Shown piece by piece: positions 2,503 through 27,665 of a stretch of 39,628 bases of DNA; position 1 is the stretch's first letter; each line of letters opens with the position of its first letter. This DNA comes from a virus. Lineage: Duplodnaviria > Heunggongvirae > Uroviricota > Caudoviricetes. The stretch lies in IMG/VR virus record IMGVR_UViG_2565956762_000004; one strand, 5' to 3'. The notes beneath the pieces were generated by a model. The model was not told the DNA's origin and ran no database searches. It saw only the letters and a list, made by a program, of their open reading frames with translations. A program made the position numbers and the translations under genes.

Positions 2503-4392
2503 ATGAAATCCGAAACGCTAACCATCCAGCAAATTTTCCAAAATCAACGACAATATCGTGTTCCATTCTATCAACGTGCCTACGTATGGACGCAACGAAA
2601 CCAATGGTCAGCTTTGCTGGAGGATATCTTCGAAAAAGCACAGAGCCGACTTTCGGGAACAAAACCAACCCCTCATTTCCTCGGCGCGGTGGTGCTGGAA
2701 CCTCAACTCAAAAACAGCTTGTTAGGTGTAGATACCATACATATTATTGACGGCCAGCAACGTTTAACCACTCTTCAATATATTCTGGCATCCATTCGAT
2801 TATCATTGCGTGCTACAGGCCTTTCTGAACTGGAAGGGTTAGTATTGACTTGCTTGAAAAATACAAACGAAGCAACGATGAGAAATAAAAAGGTAGAATG
2901 CTTCAAACTGTGGCCAACTTTTCGAGATCAAACTCATTTTATTCAAAGTCTTAATGTTGATAATATTGACGATCTCCGTAATGTATTTTCTGATAGCTTC
3001 ACGCAACATGGTACGTTACGTAAACATTTCAACCACCCGCCGTCACTAGAGGCATTATGGTTTTTTACTGAAGCCTTTATAAAATGGATTAAAATAGAAA
3101 ACCACTCACCACAAGAAAATGCTGTAGCACTAATTGAGGCTGTCTTGACGGATCTGAAACTGGTAAGCATATTTCTCGAAGCTGAAGATGATGCCCAAAT
3201 AATTTTTGAAACATTAAATGGGCGAGGAGCGGAACTTCATGCAACGGATCTTATTCGCAACTATATCTTTATGTGCGCTGAGCATGAAAATATTAATGCT
3301 ATTGAATTATATGAAAATGAGTGGAAGATCTTTGAAGATAAATACTGGTCGGAAAAGCAACGCCGTGGACGTATTAATAAACCACGCATGGAGTGGCTTG
3401 TACATGCGACATTGCAATCAGAAAGGCAGCGTGAAATTGATCTGTCTCGCCTTTACAATGAGTATCGTGATTATGTAAGTAAGGACTTGCCTTCACAACG
3501 AGCAGATCTGCAAGTAAAGCGCCTCAAACAATATGCATCACAATATAAAGAATTGGTTGGTGGTTTTGGCACAACCCCCATCTCACACTTTGGACATCGC
3601 ATCGCAGCCTATGATGTGACGACACTCTATCCGCTTGCTTTGTTCATTTCGATAGCTAACATCGCCGATGATGAGAAAGCAGCCATGTATAATGATCTTG
3701 TCTCCTACGTAGTACGAAGATCCGTATGTGGCCTGACGCCAAAGAATTACAACAATGTATTTATGAATGTATTGCGACACTTGTCTAAAACGGAAATTTC
3801 CAGTGTTGAGTTACGTAATATCCTCAATAGCTTAAATGGCGAAGCCTCACGTTGGCCTGGGGACTCAGAATTTCTCAACGCTTGCATCAATGCTCCACTT
3901 TATCCTGGCAGGCTCGACGCACCGAAAATGCGCTCAATGTTAACGGAACTTGAAAGAGAACTTTGTCGCCAAGTGAAGACAGAAAAGCCTGATGTTCCAA
4001 ATCTTTCTAATCTCGATATCGATCATCTTATGCCTCAAAGTTGGTATTCCTGTTGGCCTCTCGAAAATGGTCATATGGTGACAAATTCAGATGCTACGGT
4101 AATGAACCAAATTGTTCTGTCTGGAACCGATCTTACCCCTGAACAGCTACTGGTAAGGAAACGGCAACAAGCGATAGCTACGTTGGGAAATCTAACTTTG
4201 CTTAACCTTAGCGTAAACCGTTCCGTTCAGAATGCTGTATTTCTGAAAAAACGTGATGCTCTCATCGTCCACACCAATCTACGACTGAACATACCACTTA
4301 TACTTAAGGATAAATGGGATGAGAGTGAAATACTGGAGCGAGGTAAAAAGTTGGGGGAAATTGCATTGAAAGTATGGCCAAAATACGATTAA
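2503..4392 (+). CDS. DUF262/DUF1524 (GmrSD-family) putative type IV modification-dependent restriction endonuclease, 629 aa
   Basis: N-terminal DGQQR motif (IIDGQQRLTTL) typical of DUF262; C-terminal DIDHLMP His-Me finger motif typical of DUF1524. GC below phage average. Confidence 0.7.
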   Translation: MKSETLTIQQIFQNQRQYRVPFYQRAYVWTQRNQWSALLEDIFEKAQSRLSGTKPTPHFLGAVVLEPQLKNSLLGVDTIHIIDGQQRLTTLQYILASIRLSLRATGLSELEGLVLTCLKNTNEATMRNKKVECFKLWPTFRDQTHFIQSLNVDNIDDLRNVFSDSFTQHGTLRKHFNHPPSLEALWFFTEAFIKWIKIENHSPQENAVALIEAVLTDLKLVSIFLEAEDDAQIIFETLNGRGAELHATDLIRNYIFMCAEHENINAIELYENEWKIFEDKYWSEKQRRGRINKPRMEWLVHATLQSERQREIDLSRLYNEYRDYVSKDLPSQRADLQVKRLKQYASQYKELVGGFGTTPISHFGHRIAAYDVTTLYPLALFISIANIADDEKAAMYNDLVSYVVRRSVCGLTPKNYNNVFMNVLRHLSKTEISSVELRNILNSLNGEASRWPGDSEFLNACINAPLYPGRLDAPKMRSMLTELERELCRQVKTEKPDVPNLSNLDIDHLMPQSWYSCWPLENGHMVTNSDATVMNQIVLSGTDLTPEQLLVRKRQQAIATLGNLTLLNLSVNRSVQNAVFLKKRDALIVHTNLRLNIPLILKDKWDESEILERGKKLGEIALKVWPKYD

Positions 4393-4438: not shown

Positions 4439-4617
4439 AACTCACTATTAAATCCTTTAATTTGCATCAAGAACAGCACTGTCAGCCCTAGGCTCTCGGA
4501 CTTTGTACCGCTTATCTTGTCTTCAAAAATCAGCTCGCATCCTGCACAGTTCAACGCATTACGTTGTAGATCTGTGTTCTGGTCATTTATTGATACGCGT
4601 ACATAGCTAATAAGCAT
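4426..4617 (-). pseudogene. pin: truncated Pin/Gin/Hin-family serine DNA invertase (first ~40 codons only)
   Basis: MLISYVRVSINDQNTDLQRNALNCAGCELIFEDKISG matches the invertase N-terminus with the catalytic Ser; similarity is lost after ~40 residues and the ORF stops at 63 codons. Confidence 0.7.
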
Positions 4618-4672
4618 GTTAAATCCCCCCAAGTAAAAGCAGGAATGATGCCATTTGCTCGTTATTTCTGCA

Positions 4673-4698
4673 TTTTCATAAACGTTGGTTTGGGAGAA
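4673..4698. repeat. invertase crossover site, left (TTTTCATAAACGTTGGTTTGGGAGAA)
   Basis: Reverse complement TTCTCCCAAACCAACGTTTATGAAAA nearly equals the site at 6518-6543; palindromic AAACC/GGTTT centre as in gix/cix-type sites. Confidence 0.65.
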
Positions 4699-5145
4699 GG
4701 TTCTGCATTACCTGTTGGGGTGCCTGTTCCGTGGCCTTCAGCCACTCCGCCAACAGGCTGGCTGAAATGCAACGGTGCGCCTTTTTCTGCCGAAGAGTAT
4801 CCGGAACTGGCAAAAGTTTACCTGACAAATAAATTGCCTGATTTACGCGGTGAGTTTATTCGTGGCTGGGATGACAGAAGAGGAATAGATACTAGCCGTA
4901 GCTTGCTTTCATCACAGGGCGATGCCATTCGAAATATAATTGGTGCATTAGTGGATGTCAGGTTCAATACCTATCCTTCTGATTCTGGCGTTTTTACAAC
5001 CAGCGTCATCGGAGATGCTTCATCGGATTCAATTAAAGGTGGTTATGCAAAGCGAGTAACATTCGATGCTTCCAGAGTTGTTCCAACTGCAAACGAAAAC
5101 CGACCTCGTAACATTGCCTTTAATTATATCGTGAGGGCTGCCTGA
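4699..5145 (+). other. silent alternative tail-fibre C-terminal cassette inside the invertible segment
   Basis: Encodes GLGEGS at the crossover site, the same peptide the fibre gene encodes at 6518-6543 on the other strand; no plausible own start. Confidence 0.6.
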
Positions 5146-5753
5146 TGAATAAAGTTGTCTTAAATAACGAACTCATTGCCATAAAAGCTGGAGACATAAC
5201 CGTTTATAATTATAATGGTGAAACGCGGGAATATATTTCCACATCAACAGAATATCTTGCCATTGGTGTAGGCATTCCGGCATGTTCCTGTTTAGATGCT
5301 CCAGACTCATACAAAACTGGTTATGCAATTTGCCGTTCTGAAGATTTTAACTCATGGGTATATGTGCCAGACCATCGTGGTGAAATTGTCTATAGCACTG
5401 AAACAGGAGAATCAAAAGAAATCACAGCTCCGGGTGATTACCCTGATAATACAACCACTATCGCCCCGTTAACGCCATACGATAAATGGGATGGTGAGAA
5501 ATGGGTGACGGATACCGTGGCACAGCATAGCGCCGCAGTAGATGCAGCAGAAGCACAGCGCCAGTCGCTGATTGATACTGCAATGGCCTCCATCAGTCTG
5601 ATTCAACTGAAATTACAGGCCGGACGTAATCTGACGCAGTCAGAAACCAGCCGACTTAACACGGTGCTGGATTACATTGACGCGGTAACGGCAACAGATA
5701 CCAGCACCGCGCCGGATGTCATCTGGCCTGAACTGCCGGAGACTGCGCAATAA
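5145..5753 (+). CDS. tfa: tail fibre assembly protein (alternative-orientation set)
   Basis: 202 aa ending [13 protein letters not shown], the conserved Tfa C-terminal motif; start overlaps the upstream cassette stop (ATGA). Confidence 0.65.
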   Translation: MNKVVLNNELIAIKAGDITVYNYNGETREYISTSTEYLAIGVGIPACSCLDAPDSYKTGYAICRSEDFNSWVYVPDHRGEIVYSTETGESKEITAPGDYPDNTTTIAPLTPYDKWDGEKWVTDTVAQHSAAVDAAEAQRQSLIDTAMASISLIQLKLQAGRNLTQSETSRLNTVLDYIDAVTATDTSTAPDVIWPELPETAQ

Positions 5754-5922
5754 ACTCACCATCAATATATAAATCCCCCTGCTGTGTGTCAGCAGGGCAT
5801 TCTTTCCATATTAATGATGGATGGAATCTTCCTTCAGGATTAATTTCCGTTATCTCTTCTACTTTATTTTCTTCAATTCTTGCCCACATATGAACCTCAC
5901 CAGTAAATATAAACTGCGCCAT
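5719..5922 (-). CDS. short tail fibre assembly-like protein (currently expressed set)
   Basis: Start chosen at MAQFIF (ATG 5922-5920); converges on and overlaps the 3' end of the plus-strand tfa by 35 bp. Confidence 0.35.
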
Positions 5923-6820
5923 CTGCTCCGGCACCCGACTGACCCGTTGATGAATTAGGACATAATCCAGCACCGCCACCTCCAGGCCCAACTGCTGATA
6001 CCGCTTTTCCGTTAGCTGTATCTCTGAATGAACCTGCTCCTCCGGGGCCACCACCAGAACCACCATTACCAGCTCCCGATGCGGCAGACGCAATGGAACC
6101 TGGAGAACCTGGCCCAAGCGATGTATTAATTGTTCCCCCAACACCAACTGCGCCTAACCCTCCGGAAGGCTGGCCTCCGCTATAGCCTCCGGAAGCTGAC
6201 ATGTAAGTCCCGAAACTGCTCGAGCCACCATTTTTACCGTTTACAGAAATACCAGACACAGGCGCACCACCGGCACCAACCGTAATCGAAACACTGTTAA
6301 TACCAGTTAAATCTACCAGTCCCTCAGCAACTCCGCCCCCACCACCTCCTCCGCCACATGTAACGGCTGAAGCGGTTATTGAACCTATCCCTCCTGACGC
6401 ACCGCCACCAATAACTTTGACGTAACATTTTCTTCCTTTGCGCAACTCTTCAGGAACAGTCCAGCTTGTTACTCCAGCCGTTGTGAAGGCAACTAGATTT
6501 CTGAACCCAAATGAGCCTTCTCCCAAACCAAGGTTTTCGAGAGCCGTTTTCACCGTGCCATCCGATTTGATATCGCCAAACGGATTCTTGCGGCTTAACA
6601 GCAGCGCACGAAGCGCGGTAAGCAACTGGTCGTGCCGCCCCTTCTCCAGGCTGGCACCGGATGCCTCCACCACGCTGCAAAGCTCCTCCTGCAACATGTC
6701 AAAGTAGTCATCATCCAGATCGGTGGCAGGTGTGCCGGTCTGGGGGTTACCACGGGTAAAACCGTTCTTACCCGCGCCGAACTTATCCTTCTGCGCGGTT
6801 TTCGTGTCTATACGATGCAT
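5897..6820 (-). CDS. tail fibre protein (constant N-terminus fused to the currently selected variable C-terminus)
   Basis: 307 aa, glycine-rich repeats; N-terminus [46 protein letters not shown] typical of side tail fibres; crossover site inside the gene. Confidence 0.75.
6518..6543. repeat. invertase crossover site, right (TTCTCCCAAACCAAGGTTTTCGAGAG)
   Basis: Inverted copy of the 4673-4698 site; conserved half TTCTCCCAAACC identical. Confidence 0.65.
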
Positions 6821-9417: not shown

Positions 9418-10496
9418 CAGAACGGGTCCTCCTGTACTCTGGCTTTTTTCTTTTTCCGCGCGCCGGGGGCTTCGGGTTCAGGCAGATAAGCATCAGGTGG
9501 GCCGACACGGATTTCCGTCAGGGTGCCATTCTGGTCCTGAGTAAACGTGACTTCCGAGACAAGCAGTTCGGTATTGTCGAAACCACAGACCGGATCGAAG
9601 ACAATCACCCGCTGGTTGGGCTGCCACAGCGTACCGTTACCCTGTCGCCAGCCCTGCACCACATAGGTGGTTTCATCCGTCCGCGCCGCCCGTTGCCGGG
9701 CTTCAAAGTCAGCACGGGCAATACAGCCTGCCCCCGTGGCCTGCCCTGTCTGCCTGATATACATCGGACGGTAACGGGCAATAAATGCGTCCTCTGTGCG
9801 GGCCCGCAGCGCGGTGGTGGTGGCCTCACCGAAATCATCGTCGTTTCCGGCACGCTGCCCCGCCACCTGGTAAACTGAAAACCGCTCCCGGATACTCTTC
9901 TCCGTATCACAGGAAAGGATGTTTTCCCCAAGTACCAGCGCGGTATGTGCCCGCGTTGAGCCAATACCGCCAATCACCAGCCTGCCGTGCGGGTCGTCAT
10001 AAGCCAGCGCCTGCTGCTGACCGAGTATTTTGTTGATTACCTCAATCACCGTTTCACCGTGATCAGGCTGGACATCAGGAATAACACCCGACGGCGCACC
10101 GCTGTTCACCACCTCAATGCCGAAAGGCGCAGCAAGCGCCTGCGCAATCTGTACCAGCGATCGTCCGTTAAACTGTGTCGGTTCGGCTGCACAGTCAATC
10201 AGGTCAGCGGTCAGACTGCGTCCGGCAATACCGGTGCTGACCGAACGGGCATCGTAACGAACGGGCGTCGCCTCCACCCAGCCGGTGATCACCAGCTCAT
10301 CACCAATCAGCACCTCCACTTTTGAACCGTTTTTAATGCGCGGCTGAAGCGTGGTGATACCCTCATCTCCCGGCCACTGGCGGGTGATCTCCACACTGAA
10401 ATCCCGCGCCAGTCGTTCAACACCGGCACCGATGCGCACCGATGTCCAGCCATTCCACTCCCGGCCATTTACCCGTAGCGTGACGTTATCGTTCAT
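9417..10496 (-). CDS. tail protein, phage late control D / Mu gp44-like
   Basis: 359 aa, N-terminus MNDNVTLRVNGREW, position between DNA circulation protein and spike. Confidence 0.6.
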   Translation of the reverse strand: MNDNVTLRVNGREWNGWTSVRIGAGVERLARDFSVEITRQWPGDEGITTLQPRIKNGSKVEVLIGDELVITGWVEATPVRYDARSVSTGIAGRSLTADLIDCAAEPTQFNGRSLVQIAQALAAPFGIEVVNSGAPSGVIPDVQPDHGETVIEVINKILGQQQALAYDDPHGRLVIGGIGSTRAHTALVLGENILSCDTEKSIRERFSVYQVAGQRAGNDDDFGEATTTALRARTEDAFIARYRPMYIRQTGQATGAGCIARADFEARQRAARTDETTYVVQGWRQGNGTLWQPNQRVIVFDPVCGFDNTELLVSEVTFTQDQNGTLTEIRVGPPDAYLPEPEAPGARKKKKARVQEDPF

Positions 10497-11827
10497 TGTA
10501 CTGGCACCTTCAGAGGGATCACCGGCACAAAGCCGGGATGCGTAATGGCATTACGCCGGATAATGTCCGCGTCACGCGCCGCGTTATCAAACCAGGTCGC
10601 CGCCAGCACCAGCGCGGGTAAAACCTCATCCGGCGTGCGCTGAATGATCCGTGCAGACTGTTCAAGGCGCGTGTTGATATCCGCATTCAGATCTGCTTTC
10701 ACCCGGCGCAGCGCCAGAAACAGCGCATCACTGGTTGTACGGGACAACTCCTTATCAATTGCCGTATTCAGTGTGTCGCGAATGTCAGTCAGTTCTTCCC
10801 ACGTCGGCAGATCAACCGTGTTTTTCACCGCCGGTGCATTGTTCAGTGCCGGATGCGTGACGGAAGGCCAGCCGGTGCTCTGCGCAGCTGTTGTTGCCTG
10901 CCCCACTGCGGCATTCTGCATCACCGCGGAAGTTGTTGGCGCAGGCAATCGGGTGACGGCATACGCCGCTTCGCTGATTGCGGTCGTACGAAGGGTGCTG
11001 GCAACCACGTTACGCTGCTGCGTCGCCGTGGCGGTGGTTTTACTGTCCGTTTTCCAGACGCCGCGCGGTTGCAGATCGCTGCCGAGGCTGACACCGGAAA
11101 GCGTTTTGATCATGGTGACCAGGTCGCTGGCGTTACCATAAAGGCGTTTCCCGGTACGCCACATTTTCTGCACCTGCTCAACGAAATTTTTGCCTGACGA
11201 TGGCGGCGGCAGAAGTACCGAGATATCCCCCTGCAACAGCCTGGCGGCATCCGATACGGCAGAATCCACCACTTTCATCGCATCAGAAATATACCCAAGC
11301 ATTGTGCCGGCATTACCGACGACGTCGTTCTGCACAAAATCTGCCACGCCATCGATACTGAAACCACTGAAACTGTCACTGATGCAGTCATCCAGTGCAG
11401 AACAGGATGACATCAGCGTCTGCGCCGTCGCCGCACCTGATGTGGGGTAAGAGAGTTCTCCCGCTTCGACAAACTTCAGGTCAAAGCGGACAATACGCCC
11501 TTCACTTTTCGATGTGCTGACCCGAACTTCCCCGTCAACACAGACTTTCAGCTCACCATATGTCGGGTGGACAAGCGTGCCGGGACCGGGTTTATTCAGC
11601 GCTTCAATCAGGCGATCGCGCTGGTCAAAGCAGTCATCTCCCACCACATAAGCTGTGATGGACGGGCGGAAAGTGACTTTTCCCAGATCTTCGGTATAGG
11701 GTTTGTCGCGGTTCGGATATTCGTGTGTTTCCACACGACGGCCGGTTCCCGCACTTTCTTCTTCAACCTTAAACGGCACACCTCGAAATGACGCATCCTG
11801 AAGCCTGTCTTTCCACGTCATATACAC
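10493..11827 (-). CDS. DNA circulation protein (Mu N / gp43-like)
   Basis: 444 aa, N-terminus MTWKDRLQDASFRGVPFKVEEESAGTGRRVETHEYPNRDKPYTEDLG. Confidence 0.65.
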   Translation of the reverse strand: MYMTWKDRLQDASFRGVPFKVEEESAGTGRRVETHEYPNRDKPYTEDLGKVTFRPSITAYVVGDDCFDQRDRLIEALNKPGPGTLVHPTYGELKVCVDGEVRVSTSKSEGRIVRFDLKFVEAGELSYPTSGAATAQTLMSSCSALDDCISDSFSGFSIDGVADFVQNDVVGNAGTMLGYISDAMKVVDSAVSDAARLLQGDISVLLPPPSSGKNFVEQVQKMWRTGKRLYGNASDLVTMIKTLSGVSLGSDLQPRGVWKTDSKTTATATQQRNVVASTLRTTAISEAAYAVTRLPAPTTSAVMQNAAVGQATTAAQSTGWPSVTHPALNNAPAVKNTVDLPTWEELTDIRDTLNTAIDKELSRTTSDALFLALRRVKADLNADINTRLEQSARIIQRTPDEVLPALVLAATWFDNAARDADIIRRNAITHPGFVPVIPLKVPVQ

Positions 11828-11830
11828 TCC

Positions 11831-11860
11831 GAAAAAAAAGCCACCTATTAGAAGGTGGCC
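11831..11860 (-). terminator. intrinsic terminator following the tail-module moron
   Basis: 7-bp stem GCCACCT/AGGTGGC with a run of 8 T on the minus strand, 20 bp after the moron stop. Confidence 0.55.
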
Positions 11861-11879
11861 TTGTAATGAATTTTATTAA

Positions 11880-12410
11880 TTAGCGAGTCAGAAACAACGA
11901 ATCTTTATACTTTTGCTGTTGTTCATTTAAATACTTAGCTGTTTCATCGCTGGCAAATGGAAATATTACCGTATTTTTAGGCATGGTAATTTCTTTTTTG
12001 TCCAGCGTCAGAGTAAACATAGGAACATACTGAGCAGAGTAACGCACCGCAGAAATGAGCTCTAGTTTAGACTCTTCAACAACACTTAAATTATCCAGGC
12101 TAACTTTCTCTTCATCTTTTTTCTTTGACGCATTTAAAGTTTTTATTACTTTATTTAATTTCTCCTGAAAATCCTCCTTAAAGTTTTCAGGATTGCCGTC
12201 GACAACAAGAATCTGTTCACCCTGATTATCTGGAAAAATAATCTTTGCACTTATCAATTTATTTTCTTTATAAACATCACCAAGTTTTATGGCTCCTCCA
12301 GATAACTGAATAATATGTTCATCTTTAAAGGAGATGTTGCCAGAGATTATGAGAGATGAAAAAATAGCCGCTGCTCCAAGAATTACACTTGCTGTGATAT
12401 AGCCTTTCAT
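11880..12410 (-). CDS. low-GC moron: signal-anchored hypothetical protein, 176 aa
   Basis: N-terminal hydrophobic segment ITASVILGAAAIFSSLIISG without lipobox Cys; K/E-rich remainder; own terminator; placed between tape measure and DNA circulation genes. Confidence 0.6.
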   Translation of the reverse strand: MKGYITASVILGAAAIFSSLIISGNISFKDEHIIQLSGGAIKLGDVYKENKLISAKIIFPDNQGEQILVVDGNPENFKEDFQEKLNKVIKTLNASKKKDEEKVSLDNLSVVEESKLELISAVRYSAQYVPMFTLTLDKKEITMPKNTVIFPFASDETAKYLNEQQQKYKDSLFLTR

Positions 12411-12501
12411 TTTTCGCCTATTAACATTTTTCTAAATGTGCATTAATTCTATCACTCTATTTATGACTTACAACCAGCAATACCTGTGAGGGGAATCCTG
12501 G

Positions 12502-14334
12502 CTACCAAAATCGGGTATAGCCAACATCGTGATTTATATCAATGCCACTGGAGCGTGTTTCCGTAACCCGCATACCTGATGGCATATTTATAAATGATAC
12601 CTTGATCTCACCATCAACTTTTGGCGCGGTAGCTTTATTAATCATGAAGGGATTCGGGCCTGTGGCACCGGAGGCGTTGTTTGCCTGAGCCGGATCCACC
12701 TCCGGATAAGGAGTGTATCCCCGTGGCGGTATTCCCGTCCCATAAGCATCATAAGCACCCGCGCCCCACTGCGCCGAGTTAATGGCATCGACCGTGTCAC
12801 CGGAACTGTCGGTAAACCACTCAATAATTGGCTTCAGCTTGTCCCACATATCCTGAAACCACTTAACAACCGGTCCCCAGTTATTGATCACCATTCCCAG
12901 CGGCGACCAGGCAAAAACTTTCTTCAGAAGTTCCCAGCCAGCCTCAAAATAAGGACCAATGGTTTCCCAGAGCTTCTTAAAATAAGGTCCGACAACATCC
13001 CAGTTAGTGATAATTAATCCCGCAGCCAGAGCAATCGCCGTCGCAATCATGCCAATCGGCGTCATCGACATAATCCTGCTGACAATACTGATGGCACTGC
13101 CCACGCCCATCAATCCCAGTTTCAGAATCGCAAGACCGGCAGCAAGCCCGACGACGCTGCGAATAACCCGGGGATTTTCATCCGCAAACTTCGTGAATTT
13201 TTCCCCTAACTCCCCCAGCCATTGCGTGATATTTTTGGCGTCACCAGAAAATGCGCCGCCAATAGCCGCAAGGCCGTTAGTTGCGGTCCCCGTCATTGCC
13301 TCCCACAGGTTGGACAGCGTACCAAGCTGGGCCTGAACACGTTTATTCAGGCTAGCCTGTTTATTCATCTTCTGCTGGATCTGATCGTAACCATCCTTTC
13401 CTTTATCGATCAGAGCATTGACCACCTGAAGGGTTTCGGCATCATCACCAAATATTGCCTTAAGTACACCTGTTCGCTTAACGTCGGTCAGTTTTCGCAG
13501 CTTTGCCAGTTGCTTAAACATGTTATCAAGACCGCCAAAACTCCCTTTGCCGTCAGTAAAATCGAGCTGCACTCCGAGTTTCTGGCGGGCCATGACTTTA
13601 TTGACGTCCCTGATTTTCTTAACGCTTAATCCGGACTGGATAACTTTTCGCAGGGCATTACCTGCCGACTCCCCGTTCATCCCCATCTGATCCATCATGA
13701 CGCTGATAGGGGCAAGGCTCTGTGCAGCCTGAAGACCGTCCTTATTCACCATTTTCAGAACAGAACTGGTTTTAGTGAAGAAGGACAACATGTTGGTATC
13801 ATCAACGCCCAGATAAAACGCCTTCTGGATAGTGTCGAACAGCCCCATCATGTCTTCTGACGCCGTTCCGGTAGCATCCTGCATCTTTGCAGCAAACTCA
13901 GCAGCCGCTTCCGGTGTTTTTTTCAGTTGTACCGCAAGATAAGCTGTCGCTTTACCCACACCACCAAGAATGTTTTCTGCCGGGATCCCCTGACGCACCA
14001 GCATCTGCATCATGTTCTGGAAATCAGCCGTTGTACCGGGTAGCTGGTTACCCAGACCAATAGCCAGTTTATTGATGTCCTGAAAGCGCTTTCCGACCTC
14101 ACCGTTCGCATCCATCATGGCAACTTTCAGCCCGGTGGCGGCGTTTTCCTGATCGGCATAAGATTTCAGGGAAAGCGTCAGACCCGCAGCCAGTCCGCCA
14201 CCAAGCGCCAGCCCACCCTGTGACGCTTCTTCCGCCTGGCGTTTAAATCCCCGGATTTTCTTTTGCATTTTCGACAGCGCGGGAGAAAGCCTGTCGACAC
14301 CGGTGATCAACGCCTTAAGCTCAAATTCCGCCAT
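12502..14334 (-). CDS. tail tape measure protein
   Basis: 610 aa, Ala/Gly-rich helical protein with hydrophobic central segments, downstream of chaperone genes. Confidence 0.75.
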   Translation of the reverse strand: MAEFELKALITGVDRLSPALSKMQKKIRGFKRQAEEASQGGLALGGGLAAGLTLSLKSYADQENAATGLKVAMMDANGEVGKRFQDINKLAIGLGNQLPGTTADFQNMMQMLVRQGIPAENILGGVGKATAYLAVQLKKTPEAAAEFAAKMQDATGTASEDMMGLFDTIQKAFYLGVDDTNMLSFFTKTSSVLKMVNKDGLQAAQSLAPISVMMDQMGMNGESAGNALRKVIQSGLSVKKIRDVNKVMARQKLGVQLDFTDGKGSFGGLDNMFKQLAKLRKLTDVKRTGVLKAIFGDDAETLQVVNALIDKGKDGYDQIQQKMNKQASLNKRVQAQLGTLSNLWEAMTGTATNGLAAIGGAFSGDAKNITQWLGELGEKFTKFADENPRVIRSVVGLAAGLAILKLGLMGVGSAISIVSRIMSMTPIGMIATAIALAAGLIITNWDVVGPYFKKLWETIGPYFEAGWELLKKVFAWSPLGMVINNWGPVVKWFQDMWDKLKPIIEWFTDSSGDTVDAINSAQWGAGAYDAYGTGIPPRGYTPYPEVDPAQANNASGATGPNPFMINKATAPKVDGEIKVSFINMPSGMRVTETRSSGIDINHDVGYTRFW

Positions 14335-18779: not shown

Positions 18780-19985
18780 TTACGCCACTGCAATCTTCAG
18801 CAGTTTGATGGCCTGCGAATCGACCAGCATGCCGCCGGTGCGTTTGGTGGTATAAAAACCGACAAACGGTTTATTGGTGTACGGGTCACGCAGAATGCGG
18901 GTGCCGATACGGTCAACGATGGTGTAACCCCGTTTGAAGTTACCAAATGCAATGGCTTTCGCATCAGCGGCGATATCCGGCATCTGTTCGTTTTCAGCGA
19001 TACCGTAACCCGCCAGAGAGGACGGCTGCCCCAGCTCCAGCCCCGGACGCCACAGATAGTTACCCTCGCTGTCTTTCAGCAGACGGATGGCAAACAGGCT
19101 GTTGTTGTTCATCATGAACTTCGCACCGGTGCGGTGTGCCTTACGCAGTGTGTAAATAAGTTTGATAATGGCGTCTGCGGTCACCGCAGTCGCTTCGCCG
19201 GATACAATATGCTGAAGTTTGCCGAACGCCCGGACCTTATCGGTTTCATCAGTGGATTCATACGCCAGGAACCCTTTCGGCTTCTTGGTGCCATCGCCTG
19301 AGGTAAAGGCAATTTCTTCCTGTTCGGCAAATTCGGTTGCCAGCTCGCTGTTGATCCAGGCCTCCACGTTGAAGAAGGCATCGTCCAGCATTTTCTGGGT
19401 GGCCTGCGGGTTGCCGTAGATTTCCCCCATGAGAGGTTCAATCAGCTCCAGTTTGGAGGTGGCAGTCTGGGATCGCGTATCCGTTTCCCCCACCCATCCG
19501 GAAGCCGTGCCGCCCAGATTCACCAGTTTTTTGTAGTCGGAACCGCCAACGGTGATCACCGTGGCTTCCTAGCGCATCACCACTTCATCTTTCAGCAGGG
19601 TGAGAATGTTGCGATCCAGCGCTTCCGGCACGGCATAGCCACCGTCTTCATCGGTGCCCACCTGCAATGCCTTACGCTCCAGATCGCGCAGACCATCTTC
19701 ACGGCCTTTACGCAGGAAGCCCACAAACGCTTCTTTATGCTCGGTGGCCAGTTTATTTTGCGCACCACCTGCCGGACGTTTCAGCTCAAGCAGCTCTTTT
19801 TCAAGATCGCTTTTGAGGTTTTCCAGCTCGCTGAGTTTCCCGTTCAGGGTTTCCACCTGCCCGGCAAGTTTGCCTTTTTCCTGCTCAATCGCATCCACGC
19901 GCTTGTCGTTCTTTGCTTTGAAGTCGTCAAACTTCTGCTGCAGCTCCTGCGCGACCTGTTCGACATCTTTAATATCTACCGCCAT
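18780..19985 (-). pseudogene. HK97-family major capsid protein gene interrupted by an in-frame TAG (19569-19571)
   Basis: Upstream ORF (coiled-coil delta domain) and downstream ORF (capsid body) share one frame; read-through gives ...DEVVMR*EATVITVGG... Confidence 0.7.
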
Positions 19986-26303: not shown

Positions 26304-26426
26304 AAGTTGTGTGGCGAAGTAACCACTCATAACAGATTACAATGGTTTCTGCGGACCGCGTGAGTGATTTTATTTAATTTTTAATGTAAATTTCAGTTCC
26401 TTTTGAGTGATTACATGGAGTACATA

Positions 26427-27242
26427 ATGAAAGTGTTCATAAGTTGGTCTGGGCAAAGAAGTCAAGCTGTTGCAGAACTTATTAGCGACTGGCTGAAGTG
26501 TGTTATCCAAGCTTCGCAGCCATGGATTTCAACCAGAGATATTGATCGTGGCGCTATATGGTTCTCTGAAATTAATGATAAATTAAAAGATGTATCTGTC
26601 GGCATTGTATGTTTGACACAAGAAAATAAAAATAAACCATGGATTTTGTTTGAAACAGGAGCACTAGCAAAAGGACTTTCAACAAATAAAGTTTGTACAT
26701 TCTTGATTGACTTAAAACCAGAAGATTTAAAAGATCCACTTGCTCAATTCAATCACACAACGCCAAATAAAGAGAGTGTTTGGGAATTAGTAAGGACAAT
26801 AAACAATTGTCTTGTCGATAAATCTTTAGATGACCGTATTCTAAAGCAAGTTTTTAATACATACTGGGAGCAATTTGAAAACAATTTTAAACGAGCTTTA
26901 GATCAATACCCTCCAACTGAAGAAGTAAAACCACGTACTGAACAAGATCTTTTATCTGAAATATTACAAAACACTCGTTCATTAAATCAAAGGATTAGAG
27001 TTCTTGAACGTGATGCTACTATCAACTCCATAAATAGCCATATGAATTTAACTCCTGTAGAACAGAAGGATGTTTGGTATCTACAAAAACAGATAGATGA
27101 AATTATAAAGAATGGATTGCTTGACGAGGATGAAATAATATCATTCTTAGACAAATATGACATTCCTGAAAAAATGATTAGGAACCAAATAAAATACACA
27201 TTAAACCAACGATTATCTGAAAGTAATAAAAAAAAGAAATAA
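26427..27242 (+). CDS. TIR-like domain protein with helical C-terminal extension (start chosen at MKVFISWSG)
   Basis: KVFISWSG...W.S...I..G..W......L......GIVCLT.EN...PWILFETGA fits the bacterial TIR pattern; GGAG 6 nt before the ATG; low GC; opposite strand to neighbours. Confidence 0.6.
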   Translation: MKVFISWSGQRSQAVAELISDWLKCVIQASQPWISTRDIDRGAIWFSEINDKLKDVSVGIVCLTQENKNKPWILFETGALAKGLSTNKVCTFLIDLKPEDLKDPLAQFNHTTPNKESVWELVRTINNCLVDKSLDDRILKQVFNTYWEQFENNFKRALDQYPPTEEVKPRTEQDLLSEILQNTRSLNQRIRVLERDATINSINSHMNLTPVEQKDVWYLQKQIDEIIKNGLLDEDEIISFLDKYDIPEKMIRNQIKYTLNQRLSESNKKKK

Positions 27243-27282: not shown

Positions 27283-27648
27283 TTATAACTCCATATCTAA
27301 ATGAATATCGAGAGTAGAAAGGCAACCATCAATGAATCCCTCTGCTAACAATATTTCTATACGGATTAATTTCTCATCCTTTCCTTGTATTTTGGCAATC
27401 TTCCGCTTTGAAAACCCGTACAAATAATGCGCAACCAGTAAAGAATGCTCATAAGGTTTTCTTTTTTTTAGTTGCTCCAAGCAACTTTCAATAATTAGCG
27501 CATCATTATCTGAACAAGCTTGGCGTGCCTTACTGGTATAGGGAAGAAGTCCCTTAAACCCAGCAGCTATAGGCGAATAGTCCACTCCTGAGCTATCACT
27601 AGCTGCCCATGCCCCCCAACGTTCAAGGATGATCTGAATATCACGCAT
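27283..27648 (-). CDS. late antiterminator Q (QuuD-like)
   Basis: MRDIQIILERWGAWAA...IAAGFKGLL resembles the short Q family; position upstream of the lysis cassette. Confidence 0.7.
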   Translation of the reverse strand: MRDIQIILERWGAWAASDSSGVDYSPIAAGFKGLLPYTSKARQACSDNDALIIESCLEQLKKRKPYEHSLLVAHYLYGFSKRKIAKIQGKDEKLIRIEILLAEGFIDGCLSTLDIHLDMEL

Positions 27649-27665
27649 CAAATTTCTCCACAAAA

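What the first reader, a model, noticed from the sequence alone, without database searches (positions are those of the whole stretch)
11831..12410. Low-GC signal-anchored moron with its own terminator inside the tail operon
A 176-aa protein with an N-terminal hydrophobic anchor and a K/E-rich body is inserted between the tape measure and DNA circulation genes, followed by a strong hairpin-plus-T8 terminator. An envelope-located protein here is a candidate for superinfection exclusion or receptor masking. The terminator sits mid-operon, so downstream baseplate genes depend on antiterminated late transcription.
Basis: partly seen in the sequence, partly recalled or inferred. Interest (0 to 1): 0.55.

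Follow-up and report, generated by a model that had tools for sequence, protein, structure and literature searches.

The report
Membrane-anchored accessory gene in prophage tail operon
A small, AT-rich extra gene sits between two tail genes of an SfV/e14-like E. coli prophage and encodes a membrane-anchored periplasmic protein of an uncharacterised family, which may block infection by other phages but has not been tested.

Summary
ORF 11880-12410 (minus strand, 176 aa, 34% GC against 51-59% in its neighbours) lies between the tape measure gene and the Mu-N-like DNA circularisation gene. A hairpin (-15.6 kcal/mol) with a T8 run follows it.

It is a genuine accessory gene. Among 5426 complete E. 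coli genomes, 549 have this junction empty and 175 carry this gene. Another 195 carry one of three unrelated cargo genes. The flanking tail proteins are 97-99% identical with or without the gene. The cultured phages SfV, SfII and 689R6 lack it.

The terminator is not the gene's own. The same hairpin and T-run sit in front of the downstream gene in empty junctions, including SfV and SfII.

The protein has one N-terminal transmembrane helix and an alpha/beta domain predicted to face the periplasm (AlphaFold pLDDT 91.5). It has no Pfam family and no solved structural relative. Its only structural match is a lipoprotein of lytic Pseudomonas phages. It is under purifying selection (dN/dS 0.08), survives in decayed prophages, and also occurs beside a putative tape measure gene in an unrelated Yersinia tail module and in non-phage islands.

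A superinfection-exclusion role, as for HK97 gp15 or T4 Imm, is the best hypothesis but is untested. I class it as a new member of a known kind, of moderate interest.

The parts
12446..12473 (-). Promoter-like element TTGTAA-16 nt-TAGAAT with a TG extended -10, ending 35 nt before the ATG of the accessory gene
   Evidence: Comparable elements lie 17-31 nt upstream of the homologues in L012, L013, L021 and L023. This is a consensus match only and is not significant on its own.
11880..12410 (-). Accessory gene 'X', 176 aa, PHROG 5485, with no Pfam, NCBIfam or PADLOC family
   Evidence: dN/dS is 0.08 between the Leclercia-type homologues L008 and L012.
12342..12407 (-). Codons 2-23: a single transmembrane helix with a conserved face of small residues (positions 7/8, 12, 14, 18/19, 23)
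11898..12314 (-). Codons 33-171: alpha/beta domain predicted to be periplasmic, with conserved motifs N32-x6-G-x-V-x-LG-x-VY-x-E49 and Y124-x-SE-xx-P-x-F-x-L134
   Evidence: No solved relative was found.
11832..11862 (-). Intrinsic-terminator-like hairpin (11837-11862) and T8 run (11832-11839). It is a backbone feature of the junction, not specific to the insert.
   Evidence: The same element is present at empty junctions and with other cargo genes.
11819..11830 (-). GGAG ribosome-binding site (11827-11830) and ATG (11819-11821) of the DNA circularisation gene, starting 1 nt after the T-run
   Evidence: Read from the sequence. The RefSeq start is given.
12502..14334 (-). Tail tape measure gene, immediately upstream in the direction of transcription
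   Evidence: PF10145. It is 97-98% identical to the tape measure proteins of empty-slot modules.
10493..11821 (-). Mu-N-like DNA circularisation / baseplate gene, immediately downstream
   Evidence: PF07157. It is 98.6% identical to SfV orf15.
27283..27663 (-). Q-family antiterminator gene, upstream of the lysis and structural genes
   Evidence: PF06530, E = 1.3e-48

Best explanation
Shown:
- The region is a self-contained accessory cassette (a 'moron') occupying a variable cargo slot between the tape measure gene and the Mu-N-like gene of an SfV/e14-like contractile-tail module.
- It is not needed to build the tail.
- It encodes a real protein that is under purifying selection.

Inferred from sequence and model:
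- The protein is a type II (N-in, C-out) single-pass inner-membrane protein. Its roughly 140-residue alpha/beta domain sits in the periplasm close to the membrane.
- In a lysogen it is transcribed from its own weak sigma-70 promoter.
- That transcript stops at the backbone hairpin and T-run, so the baseplate genes stay silent.
- During lytic growth, Q-modified RNA polymerase reads through the same hairpin.

Hypothesis:
- The protein protects the lysogen by blocking genome entry of incoming tailed phages at the periplasm / inner-membrane step.
- The most likely mechanism is engagement of the ejected tape measure protein or tail-tip conduit. HK97 gp15, T4 Imm and TP-J34 Ltp are reported or proposed to act this way.
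For: Accessory, not structural:
- Among 5426 complete E. coli genomes the junction is empty in 549 and carries X in 175. It carries a 162-aa signal-peptide protein in 101, a TM-anchored tRNA_anti-like OB-fold protein in 70 and a bPH_1 protein in 24.
- The flanking tape measure and N-like proteins are 97-99.5% identical with or without X.
- The cultured phages SfV, SfII and vB_EcoM-689R6 have the empty junction.

Real gene:
- dN/dS is 0.08.
- 78 family representatives, nearly all 166-203 aa, were found among 1.84 billion proteins.

Topology:
- There is one hydrophobic segment.
- In 55 of 58 family members the N-terminal flank is more positively charged than the C-terminal flank.
- The TM residues are more conserved than the protein average, with a small-xxx-small pattern.
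- There is no lipobox.
- The only structural match is a lipoprotein (lipobox LLTGC) of the lytic Pseudomonas phage ventosus. Foldseek gives E = 3e-6 and TM-scores 0.55/0.65; hhalign gives E = 4.6e-5. In both proteins the domain is therefore tethered to a membrane on the periplasmic side.

Autonomy and benefit to the host:
- The gene stands alone next to icd in Lelliottia, flanked by a 3' remnant of the tape measure gene and by the hairpin.
- It is intact in a heavily decayed prophage at thrW.
- It is intact in the window's own prophage, whose capsid gene carries an internal stop.
- Distant homologues lie in integrase/recombinase islands with no tail genes, in one case next to an Mrr-like nuclease.

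Link to the tape measure protein:
- X occupies the same slot in Escherichia, Leclercia and Edwardsiella, and in the IMG/VR contigs.
- In an unrelated Yersinia rohdei tail module it lies immediately upstream of the putative tape measure gene.

Precedents:
- HK97 gp15 is a moron next to the tape measure gene, is an inner-membrane protein and blocks injection (PMC3594210).
- T4 Imm binds the tape measure protein (bioRxiv 10.64898/2026.03.06.709160).
- Escape from Ltp and gp15 maps to the tape measure protein (PMC10883804).

Transcription:
- A promoter-like element lies upstream.
- The hairpin is stable and a Q gene is present.
Against: - No experiment or expression data exist for this family.
- It has no sequence or fold similarity to any known exclusion protein, and PADLOC returns nothing.
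- The promoter is only a 9-of-12 consensus match, and such matches are no more frequent here than in shuffled sequence.
- Adjacency to the tape measure gene may only mean that the gene's borders tolerate insertions.
- X lies next to a tape measure protein that is 97-98% identical to those of relatives lacking X. There is therefore no sign of co-adaptation between X and its own tape measure protein.
- Signal peptide versus signal anchor was not settled with a dedicated predictor. UniRef labels one Leclercia homologue 'Secreted protein'.
Confidence: 0.42

Rival explanations
1. X is a lysogenic-conversion envelope factor that benefits the host in a way unrelated to phage entry, comparable to Bor/Iss or Lom. 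Examples would be stress or serum resistance, envelope homeostasis or colonisation.
For: The moron architecture, envelope location and retention in decayed prophages fit this reading as well as they fit exclusion. Other cargo genes of the same slot are also exported proteins of unknown function. An iss gene sits in the same decayed prophage in strain SCU-118.
Against: The protein is anchored in the inner membrane rather than exposed on the surface. The family recurs next to tape measure genes in two unrelated tail modules. A lipoprotein version occurs in strictly lytic Pseudomonas phages, where host-fitness conversion makes little sense.
Confidence: 0.22
2. X is an anti-phage defence acting after entry. 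It would work as an abortive-infection or assembly-interference type membrane effector, triggered by or targeting a tail protein of the invader as Tab or Tai do, rather than blocking injection.
For: Prophage morons that target the tape measure protein of invading phages after entry are known, for example Tab (PMC10884400) and Tai (PMC11364771). One distant homologue lies in an island next to an Mrr-like nuclease.
Against: The bulk of the protein is predicted to be periplasmic, away from cytoplasmic tail assembly. It has only one TM helix and no recognisable effector domain.
Confidence: 0.12
3. X serves the carrying phage during its own lytic cycle. It might protect newly infected or lysing cells from wasteful re-injection by sister virions, or assist its own tape measure protein at the membrane.
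For: X lies in the late operon in the sense orientation, so Q-antiterminated transcription will express it late. It sits directly beside the tape measure gene. Lytic Pseudomonas phages carry a related lipoprotein.
Against: It is dispensable in SfV, SfII and 689R6. It persists where the phage is dead, in the Lelliottia orphan, the SCU-118 remnant and the window's prophage with its broken capsid gene. It also occurs in islands with no tail genes.
Confidence: 0.1
4. X is a structural or assembly component of the tail.
For: Its position is fixed between the tape measure and N-like genes in 78 of 82 further loci and in three genera.
Against: It is absent from 549 or more E. coli genomes with near-identical modules and from cultured SfV-family phages. 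It has a membrane anchor and no similarity to tail proteins. It also occurs outside tail modules.
Confidence: 0.03

Closest known systems
HK97 gp15 moron (Juhala et al. 2000; Cumby et al. 2012; PMC3594210)
   Same: Both are AT-rich extra genes inside the tail operon, directly beside the tape measure gene. Both have a promoter and terminator that would allow expression from the repressed prophage. Both encode a single-pass inner-membrane protein. The Yersinia rohdei homologue of X even occupies the gp15 position, between chaperone-like genes and the putative tape measure gene.
   Different: There is no sequence relationship; gp15 belongs to the YebO family and X matches no Pfam family. Per PMC3594210, gp15 is a small protein. 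X carries a periplasmic domain of about 140 residues. The host module here is a contractile Mu/SfV-type tail, not a siphovirus tail. The function of X is untested.
T4 Imm, TP-J34 Ltp, P22 SieA and T5 Llp (membrane-tethered superinfection-exclusion proteins)
   Same: All are small phage-encoded proteins tethered to a membrane that act at the cell envelope (T5 Llp at the outer-membrane receptor). Imm and Ltp act on the tape measure protein. The X fold occurs both with a TM anchor and as a lipoprotein, like the Ltp and Llp type.
   Different: No homology to X was detected by Pfam, PADLOC or the PDB searches. Target and phenotype are unknown for X.
Pseudomonas phage ventosus lipoprotein A0A2H4P829 (CNR37_00111) and its relatives in UAVern, Bitten and vB_PF_Y1-MI
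   Same: It is the only structural match (Foldseek E = 3e-6, TM-scores 0.55/0.65) and a probable remote homologue (hhalign E = 4.6e-5). The membrane-proximal motif is shared: KDTIIHTRSAVVNVGEV against KDEHIIQLSGGAIKLGDV.
   Different: It has a lipobox signal peptide in place of the TM helix. It is encoded outside the tail module of ~95-100 kb Pseudomonas phages (ventosus is described as lytic in PMC8537276). It is likewise uncharacterised.
Defence and cargo hotspots of temperate phages (P2/P4 hotspots, Rousset et al. 2022; the Q-lysis moron slot of SfIV, PMC3851460)
   Same: A fixed intergenic position in a conserved module holds alternative, unrelated, AT-rich cargo genes in different genomes.
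   Different: This slot lies in the middle of the tail operon between the tape measure and Mu-N-like genes. I found no description of it in the searched literature. None of its four cargo genes matches a known defence system in PADLOC.

Membership tests
Moron (Juhala/Hendrix definition) | Extra DNA relative to otherwise closely related phage genomes | tested here: met
   The junction is empty in 549 E. coli genomes and in SfV, SfII and 689R6. The flanking proteins are 97-99.5% identical.
Moron (Juhala/Hendrix definition) | Base composition different from surrounding genes | tested here: met
   34.3% GC against 51-59%. All homologues have 34-39% GC.
Moron (Juhala/Hendrix definition) | Own promoter | tested here: inconclusive
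   TTGTAA-16-TAGAAT with a TG lies at 12473-12446, and similar elements lie upstream of several homologues. The orphan copy in Lelliottia would need its own promoter. These are consensus matches and are not enriched over chance; there is no transcript evidence.
Moron (Juhala/Hendrix definition) | Own terminator | tested here: inconclusive
   A strong hairpin and T-run follow the gene. However, the same element exists at empty junctions and with other cargo genes. It therefore belongs to the backbone and is used by the moron, not brought by it.
Moron (Juhala/Hendrix definition) | Expressed from the repressed prophage | not testable with these tools
   This needs RNA or protein data from lysogens.
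HK97 gp15 / YebO family | Sequence homology to YebO/gp15 | tested here: not met
   No Pfam or NCBIfam family matches X or any of the 58 family members.
Known superinfection-exclusion / defence proteins | Match to a described defence or exclusion protein model | tested here: not met
   PADLOC gives 0 hits. PHROG 5485 is 'unknown function'. There is no PDB relative by sequence or fold.
Known superinfection-exclusion / defence proteins | Reduces infection by other phages when expressed alone | not testable with these tools
   This needs a plating and injection experiment.
Tail structural / assembly protein | Present in all related tail modules, or homologous to a virion protein | tested here: not met
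   About 16% of matching E. coli modules carry it, 175 of ~1070. No tail family matches.
Bacterial lipoprotein | Lipobox with an invariant Cys after the signal peptide | tested here: not met
   X contains no Cys. The phage ventosus relative does have a lipobox, LLTGC.
Type II signal-anchor inner-membrane protein | A single uncleaved N-terminal TM helix, positive-inside charge bias, C-terminus in the periplasm | tested here: inconclusive
   The single hydrophobic segment has a median uncharged span of 23 residues. The charge bias points N-in in 55 of 58 members, and the TM residues are conserved. No dedicated signal-peptide predictor or fusion experiment was available.
Intrinsic (rho-independent) terminator | GC-rich hairpin directly followed by a U-run | tested here: met
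   A 10-pair stem, -15.6 kcal/mol, followed by T8. Stems differ between lineages but a hairpin always forms, for example CCCAC/GTGGG, CCCGC/GCGGG and CCACC/GGTGG. Actual termination and read-through by Q were not testable.

The most novel reading that the evidence does not exclude
X (PHROG 5485) and its lipoprotein relatives in lytic Pseudomonas phages would form a new, structurally unprecedented family of periplasm-facing superinfection-exclusion proteins. They would act on the tape measure protein or ejection conduit of contractile-tailed phages. The tape measure / Mu-N junction of SfV-like phages would then be a dedicated hotspot for envelope-acting anti-phage cargo.
Probability: 0.3. Interest if true: 0.6.

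Novelty: new member of a known kind. Interest (0 to 1): 0.42.

Why it matters
If X excludes phages, it would add a new protein family and fold to the small set of entry-blocking proteins. Its position next to the tape measure gene would also suggest an obvious target to test.

SfV-like prophages are very common. Roughly one complete E. coli genome in five matches this junction, and these phages include the Shigella serotype-converting phages. A four-way (or larger) cargo slot in their tail operon is therefore a compact place to look for envelope-level phage resistance relevant to phage therapy.

If X turns out to be inert, the finding is simply one more uncharacterised moron.

Tried and rejected
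- Pfam, NCBIfam and PADLOC scans of X, and Pfam scans of all 58 family members, found nothing.
- tblastn of X against 50,697 phage records gave no match.
- A profile search against PDB sequences gave nothing.
- The afdb50 structure library was unavailable.
With the close alignment it returned only near-identical loci plus Edwardsiella and Mangrovibacter.
- I abandoned a formal covariation count on the hairpin because MAFFT put the stems of different lineages out of register. The argument for the hairpin therefore rests on independent folds.
- Rfam returned only a sub-threshold Phe_leader match, which reflects the terminator shape.
- Literature searches for the protein accession, and for this slot in e14/SfV-like phages, found nothing.
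- I considered a cleaved Sec signal peptide. I judged it less likely than an anchor because of the long uncharged span and the conserved TM residues, but I could not exclude it.
- I considered receptor masking at the outer membrane. I judged it unlikely for a protein tethered to the inner membrane.

Full report
**What is there**

The window is an SfV/e14-like prophage of E. coli integrated at icd. It has lambdoid regulation and lysis genes and a Mu-type contractile tail module on the minus strand.

ORF 11880..12410 (minus strand, 176 aa) lies between the tape measure gene (12502..14334, PF10145) and the Mu-N-like DNA circularisation gene (10493..11821, PF07157). Its GC content is 34.3% (GC3 29.9%), against 51-59% for its neighbours.

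Seventeen nucleotides after its stop codon lies a hairpin at 11837-11862, followed by T8 at 11832-11839. The hairpin folds at -15.6 kcal/mol and none of 200 shuffles folds as well. One nucleotide after the T-run comes the GGAG ribosome-binding site of the next gene.

**It is an accessory cassette in a cargo slot**

I searched 5426 complete E. coli genomes with the junction and with each cargo gene.

| State of the junction | Genomes |
|---|---|
| Match to the flanks | about 1070-1085 |
| Empty junction (at least 80% of a 301-nt spanning query) | 549 |
| This gene, 'X' | 175 |
| 162-aa signal-peptide protein | 101 |
| TM-anchored tRNA_anti-like OB-fold protein, opposite strand | 70 |
| bPH_1 protein | 24 |

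- The tape measure protein next to X is 97-98% identical to those of empty-slot and OB-cargo modules. The N-like protein is 98-99.5% identical. X is therefore a clean insertion/deletion difference.
- The cultured phages SfV, SfII and vB_EcoM-689R6 have the empty junction, so X is not needed to make infectious virions.
- The slot is also a mosaic breakpoint. L006, L007 and SfIV keep a 97% identical N-like protein, but their tape measure protein is only 23% identical.

**The terminator belongs to the backbone**

- Empty junctions (L003, L004, SfV, SfII, 689R6) have TCCCAC-tccg-GTGGGA followed by T6 at the same distance from the N-gene ribosome-binding site.
- The bPH cargo version has GCCCAC-ttcg-GTGGGC.
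- The X loci of Leclercia and Lelliottia have CCCGC(C)/(G)GCGGG stems, and Edwardsiella has AAACCACC/GGTGGTTT.
- All fold at -11.8 to about -19 kcal/mol.
- The stems differ but a hairpin is always kept, which points to selection on the structure.
- The GenBank record of SfII already annotates it as a putative rho-independent terminator.
- Modules with the alternative tape measure allele differ. SfIV and L006 lack the hairpin, while L007 has its own stem (AAAACCGCG/CGCGGTTTT, -18.2 kcal/mol).

The cargo is thus inserted between the tape measure stop codon and a pre-existing terminator. 'Its own terminator' is not correct.

No room for a promoter exists between the T-run and the N-gene start, so all baseplate transcription must pass through the hairpin. 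A Q antiterminator gene (PF06530) is present at 27283-27663. That Q-modified polymerase reads through is inferred from what is known of lambdoid phages.

**The protein**

- *Family.* Close homologues (53-59% identity, 173-174 aa) occur in Leclercia, Lelliottia and metagenomes. A profile search of 1.84 billion representatives found 78 family members, nearly all 166-203 aa and matched over nearly the whole length, N-terminal segment included. Named members come from Edwardsiella, Yersinia, Aeromonas, Enterobacter and Pseudomonas. None matches any Pfam family. PHROG 5485 is 'unknown function'.
- *Model.* With the 58-sequence alignment, AlphaFold gives pLDDT 91.5 and pTM 0.76. It predicts a helix at 2-23, then a beta-hairpin (33-42), strands 46-58 and 70-72, helix 74-93, strands 114-126 and 132-143, and helix 149-171.
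- *The one structural match.* Foldseek against viral models gives a single significant hit, a 144-aa lipoprotein of the lytic Pseudomonas phage ventosus (E = 3e-6). I located it (CNR37_00111, lipobox LLTGC). It aligns to the family profile with hhalign E = 4.6e-5. It has relatives in three other ~95-100 kb Pseudomonas phages.
- *Topology.* There is one hydrophobic segment. In 55 of 58 members the N-flank is more positive than the C-flank, and the median uncharged span is 23 residues. The TM residues are better conserved than the protein average (1.96 against 1.70 bits), with small residues recurring at positions 7/8, 12, 14, 18/19 and 23. X has no Cys.

Together with the lipoprotein relative, this points to an N-in/C-out inner-membrane anchor with a periplasmic domain. 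A helix-packing interface in the membrane is also possible. A cleaved signal peptide is not excluded.

**Evolution and context**

- dN/dS is 0.08 between two Leclercia-type copies.
- Between the window and the Leclercia modules X is 53-56% identical. The other tail proteins are mostly 68-88% identical (range 35-88%). X keeps 34-39% GC in every lineage. It therefore evolves faster than most of its neighbours and its AT-richness is maintained, not just recent.
- X occupies the same slot in Escherichia, Leclercia, Edwardsiella and 78 of 82 further loci.
- In Yersinia rohdei a 30%-identical homologue, with its own promoter-like element and hairpin/T-run, lies in an unrelated contractile-tail module. 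There it sits immediately upstream of a 767-aa protein. By position, composition and a weak TMP_3 match, that protein is probably the tape measure protein. This is the position of HK97 gene 15.
- Distant homologues (about 23% identity) lie in small integrative islands that have recombinases and, in one case, an Mrr-like nuclease, but no tail genes.
- X outlives its phage in three settings:
  - In Lelliottia amnigena it stands alone next to icd, flanked only by a 3' remnant of the tape measure gene and the hairpin.
  - In E. coli SCU-118 a decayed prophage at thrW keeps the tape measure gene and X intact, while the N-like, portal and chaperone genes are truncated.
  - In the window itself the major capsid gene has an internal stop.

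**Interpretation**

The shown facts establish a non-structural, selectively maintained, envelope-directed accessory gene. The most likely function is protection of the lysogen against incoming phages at the periplasm / inner-membrane step. I give this about 0.4.

Three lines of argument support it:

- The closest analogues behave this way. HK97 gp15 is a moron beside the tape measure gene, sits in the inner membrane and blocks injection (PMC3594210). T4 Imm binds the tape measure protein (bioRxiv 10.64898/2026.03.06.709160). Escape from Ltp and gp15 maps to the tape measure protein (PMC10883804).
- X is repeatedly linked to tape measure genes in unrelated tail modules.
- A lipoprotein form occurs in lytic phages.

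The rivals are a host-fitness envelope factor, a post-entry defence, and a role in the phage's own lytic cycle. A structural role is effectively excluded. None of these can be separated further without experiments.

**Verdict**

The terminator claim needs correcting, and the exclusion role remains a reasonable but untested hypothesis. I class the finding as a new member of a known kind: a tail-operon moron that encodes a membrane protein of an uncharacterised family. The by-product worth following up is the multi-cargo slot itself.

Noticed in passing
window 11822-12501; L002, L005, L007: The tape measure | Mu-N junction is a cargo hotspot. Besides X, related E. coli prophages carry three other genes there. 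One is a bPH_1 protein (24 genomes). One is a TM-anchored tRNA_anti-like OB-fold protein on the opposite strand (70 genomes). One is a 162-aa signal-peptide protein (101 genomes). None matches PADLOC.
   Followed up: partly
window 18780-19985 (-): The major capsid gene is split by an internal stop into 259-aa and 138-aa ORFs. RefSeq marks it as a pseudogene in the strain 1190 prophage (L001), which matches the window exactly over the stretch compared. The prophage is therefore probably defective while X stays intact.
   Followed up: partly
window 26403-27242 (+): A TIR_2-domain protein is encoded on the opposite strand between the Q antiterminator and the holin. This is the position described as a moron slot in phage SfIV (PMC3851460). 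It is a likely defence gene.
   Followed up: no
window 2503-4392 (+): A GmrSD-like type IV restriction enzyme (GmrSD_N + GmrSD_C, 629 aa) lies at the prophage end next to the icd fragment and a truncated recombinase.
   Followed up: no
window 4474-6820: A tail-collar ORF and a tail-fibre-assembly ORF on the plus strand face the tail fibre genes on the minus strand, beside a truncated recombinase pseudogene (window ~4474-4617, converted from the L001 coordinates). This looks like a frozen invertible tail-fibre segment of the Pin/Gin type.
   Followed up: no
L006, L007, L111 (SfIV) versus window 11822-14334: The slot coincides with a mosaic breakpoint. These modules keep a 97% identical DNA circularisation protein, but their tape measure protein is only 23% identical. 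SfIV and L006 also lack the hairpin.
   Followed up: partly
L013 5860-6580 (Lelliottia amnigena): An orphan copy of X lies next to icd, with a tape measure 3' remnant upstream and the hairpin downstream. The rest of the prophage is gone.
   Followed up: yes
L020 19592-22638 (E. coli SCU-118, thrW site): A decayed prophage retains the full-length tape measure gene and X, while the DNA circularisation, chaperone, portal and HNH genes are truncated. An iss gene lies in the same remnant.
   Followed up: partly
L023/L024 6001-8894 (Yersinia rohdei): A 30%-identical X homologue has its own promoter-like element and hairpin/T-run. It sits directly upstream of a 767-aa putative tape measure gene in an unrelated contractile-tail module.
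   Followed up: partly
window 11832-11839 versus L029-L108: The T-run is polymorphic. T8 in the window is rare (1 of about 80 loci), and most relatives have T6-A-T4 or T5. This 3-nt difference may change terminator efficiency.
   Followed up: no
X homologues in window, L008, L012, L013, L018: Low GC (34-39%) is maintained in X across lineages that differ by about 45% in amino-acid sequence. The AT-richness is therefore a persistent property, not a trace of recent transfer. Xenogeneic silencing or regulation (for example by H-NS) is a possibility that was not tested.
   Followed up: no
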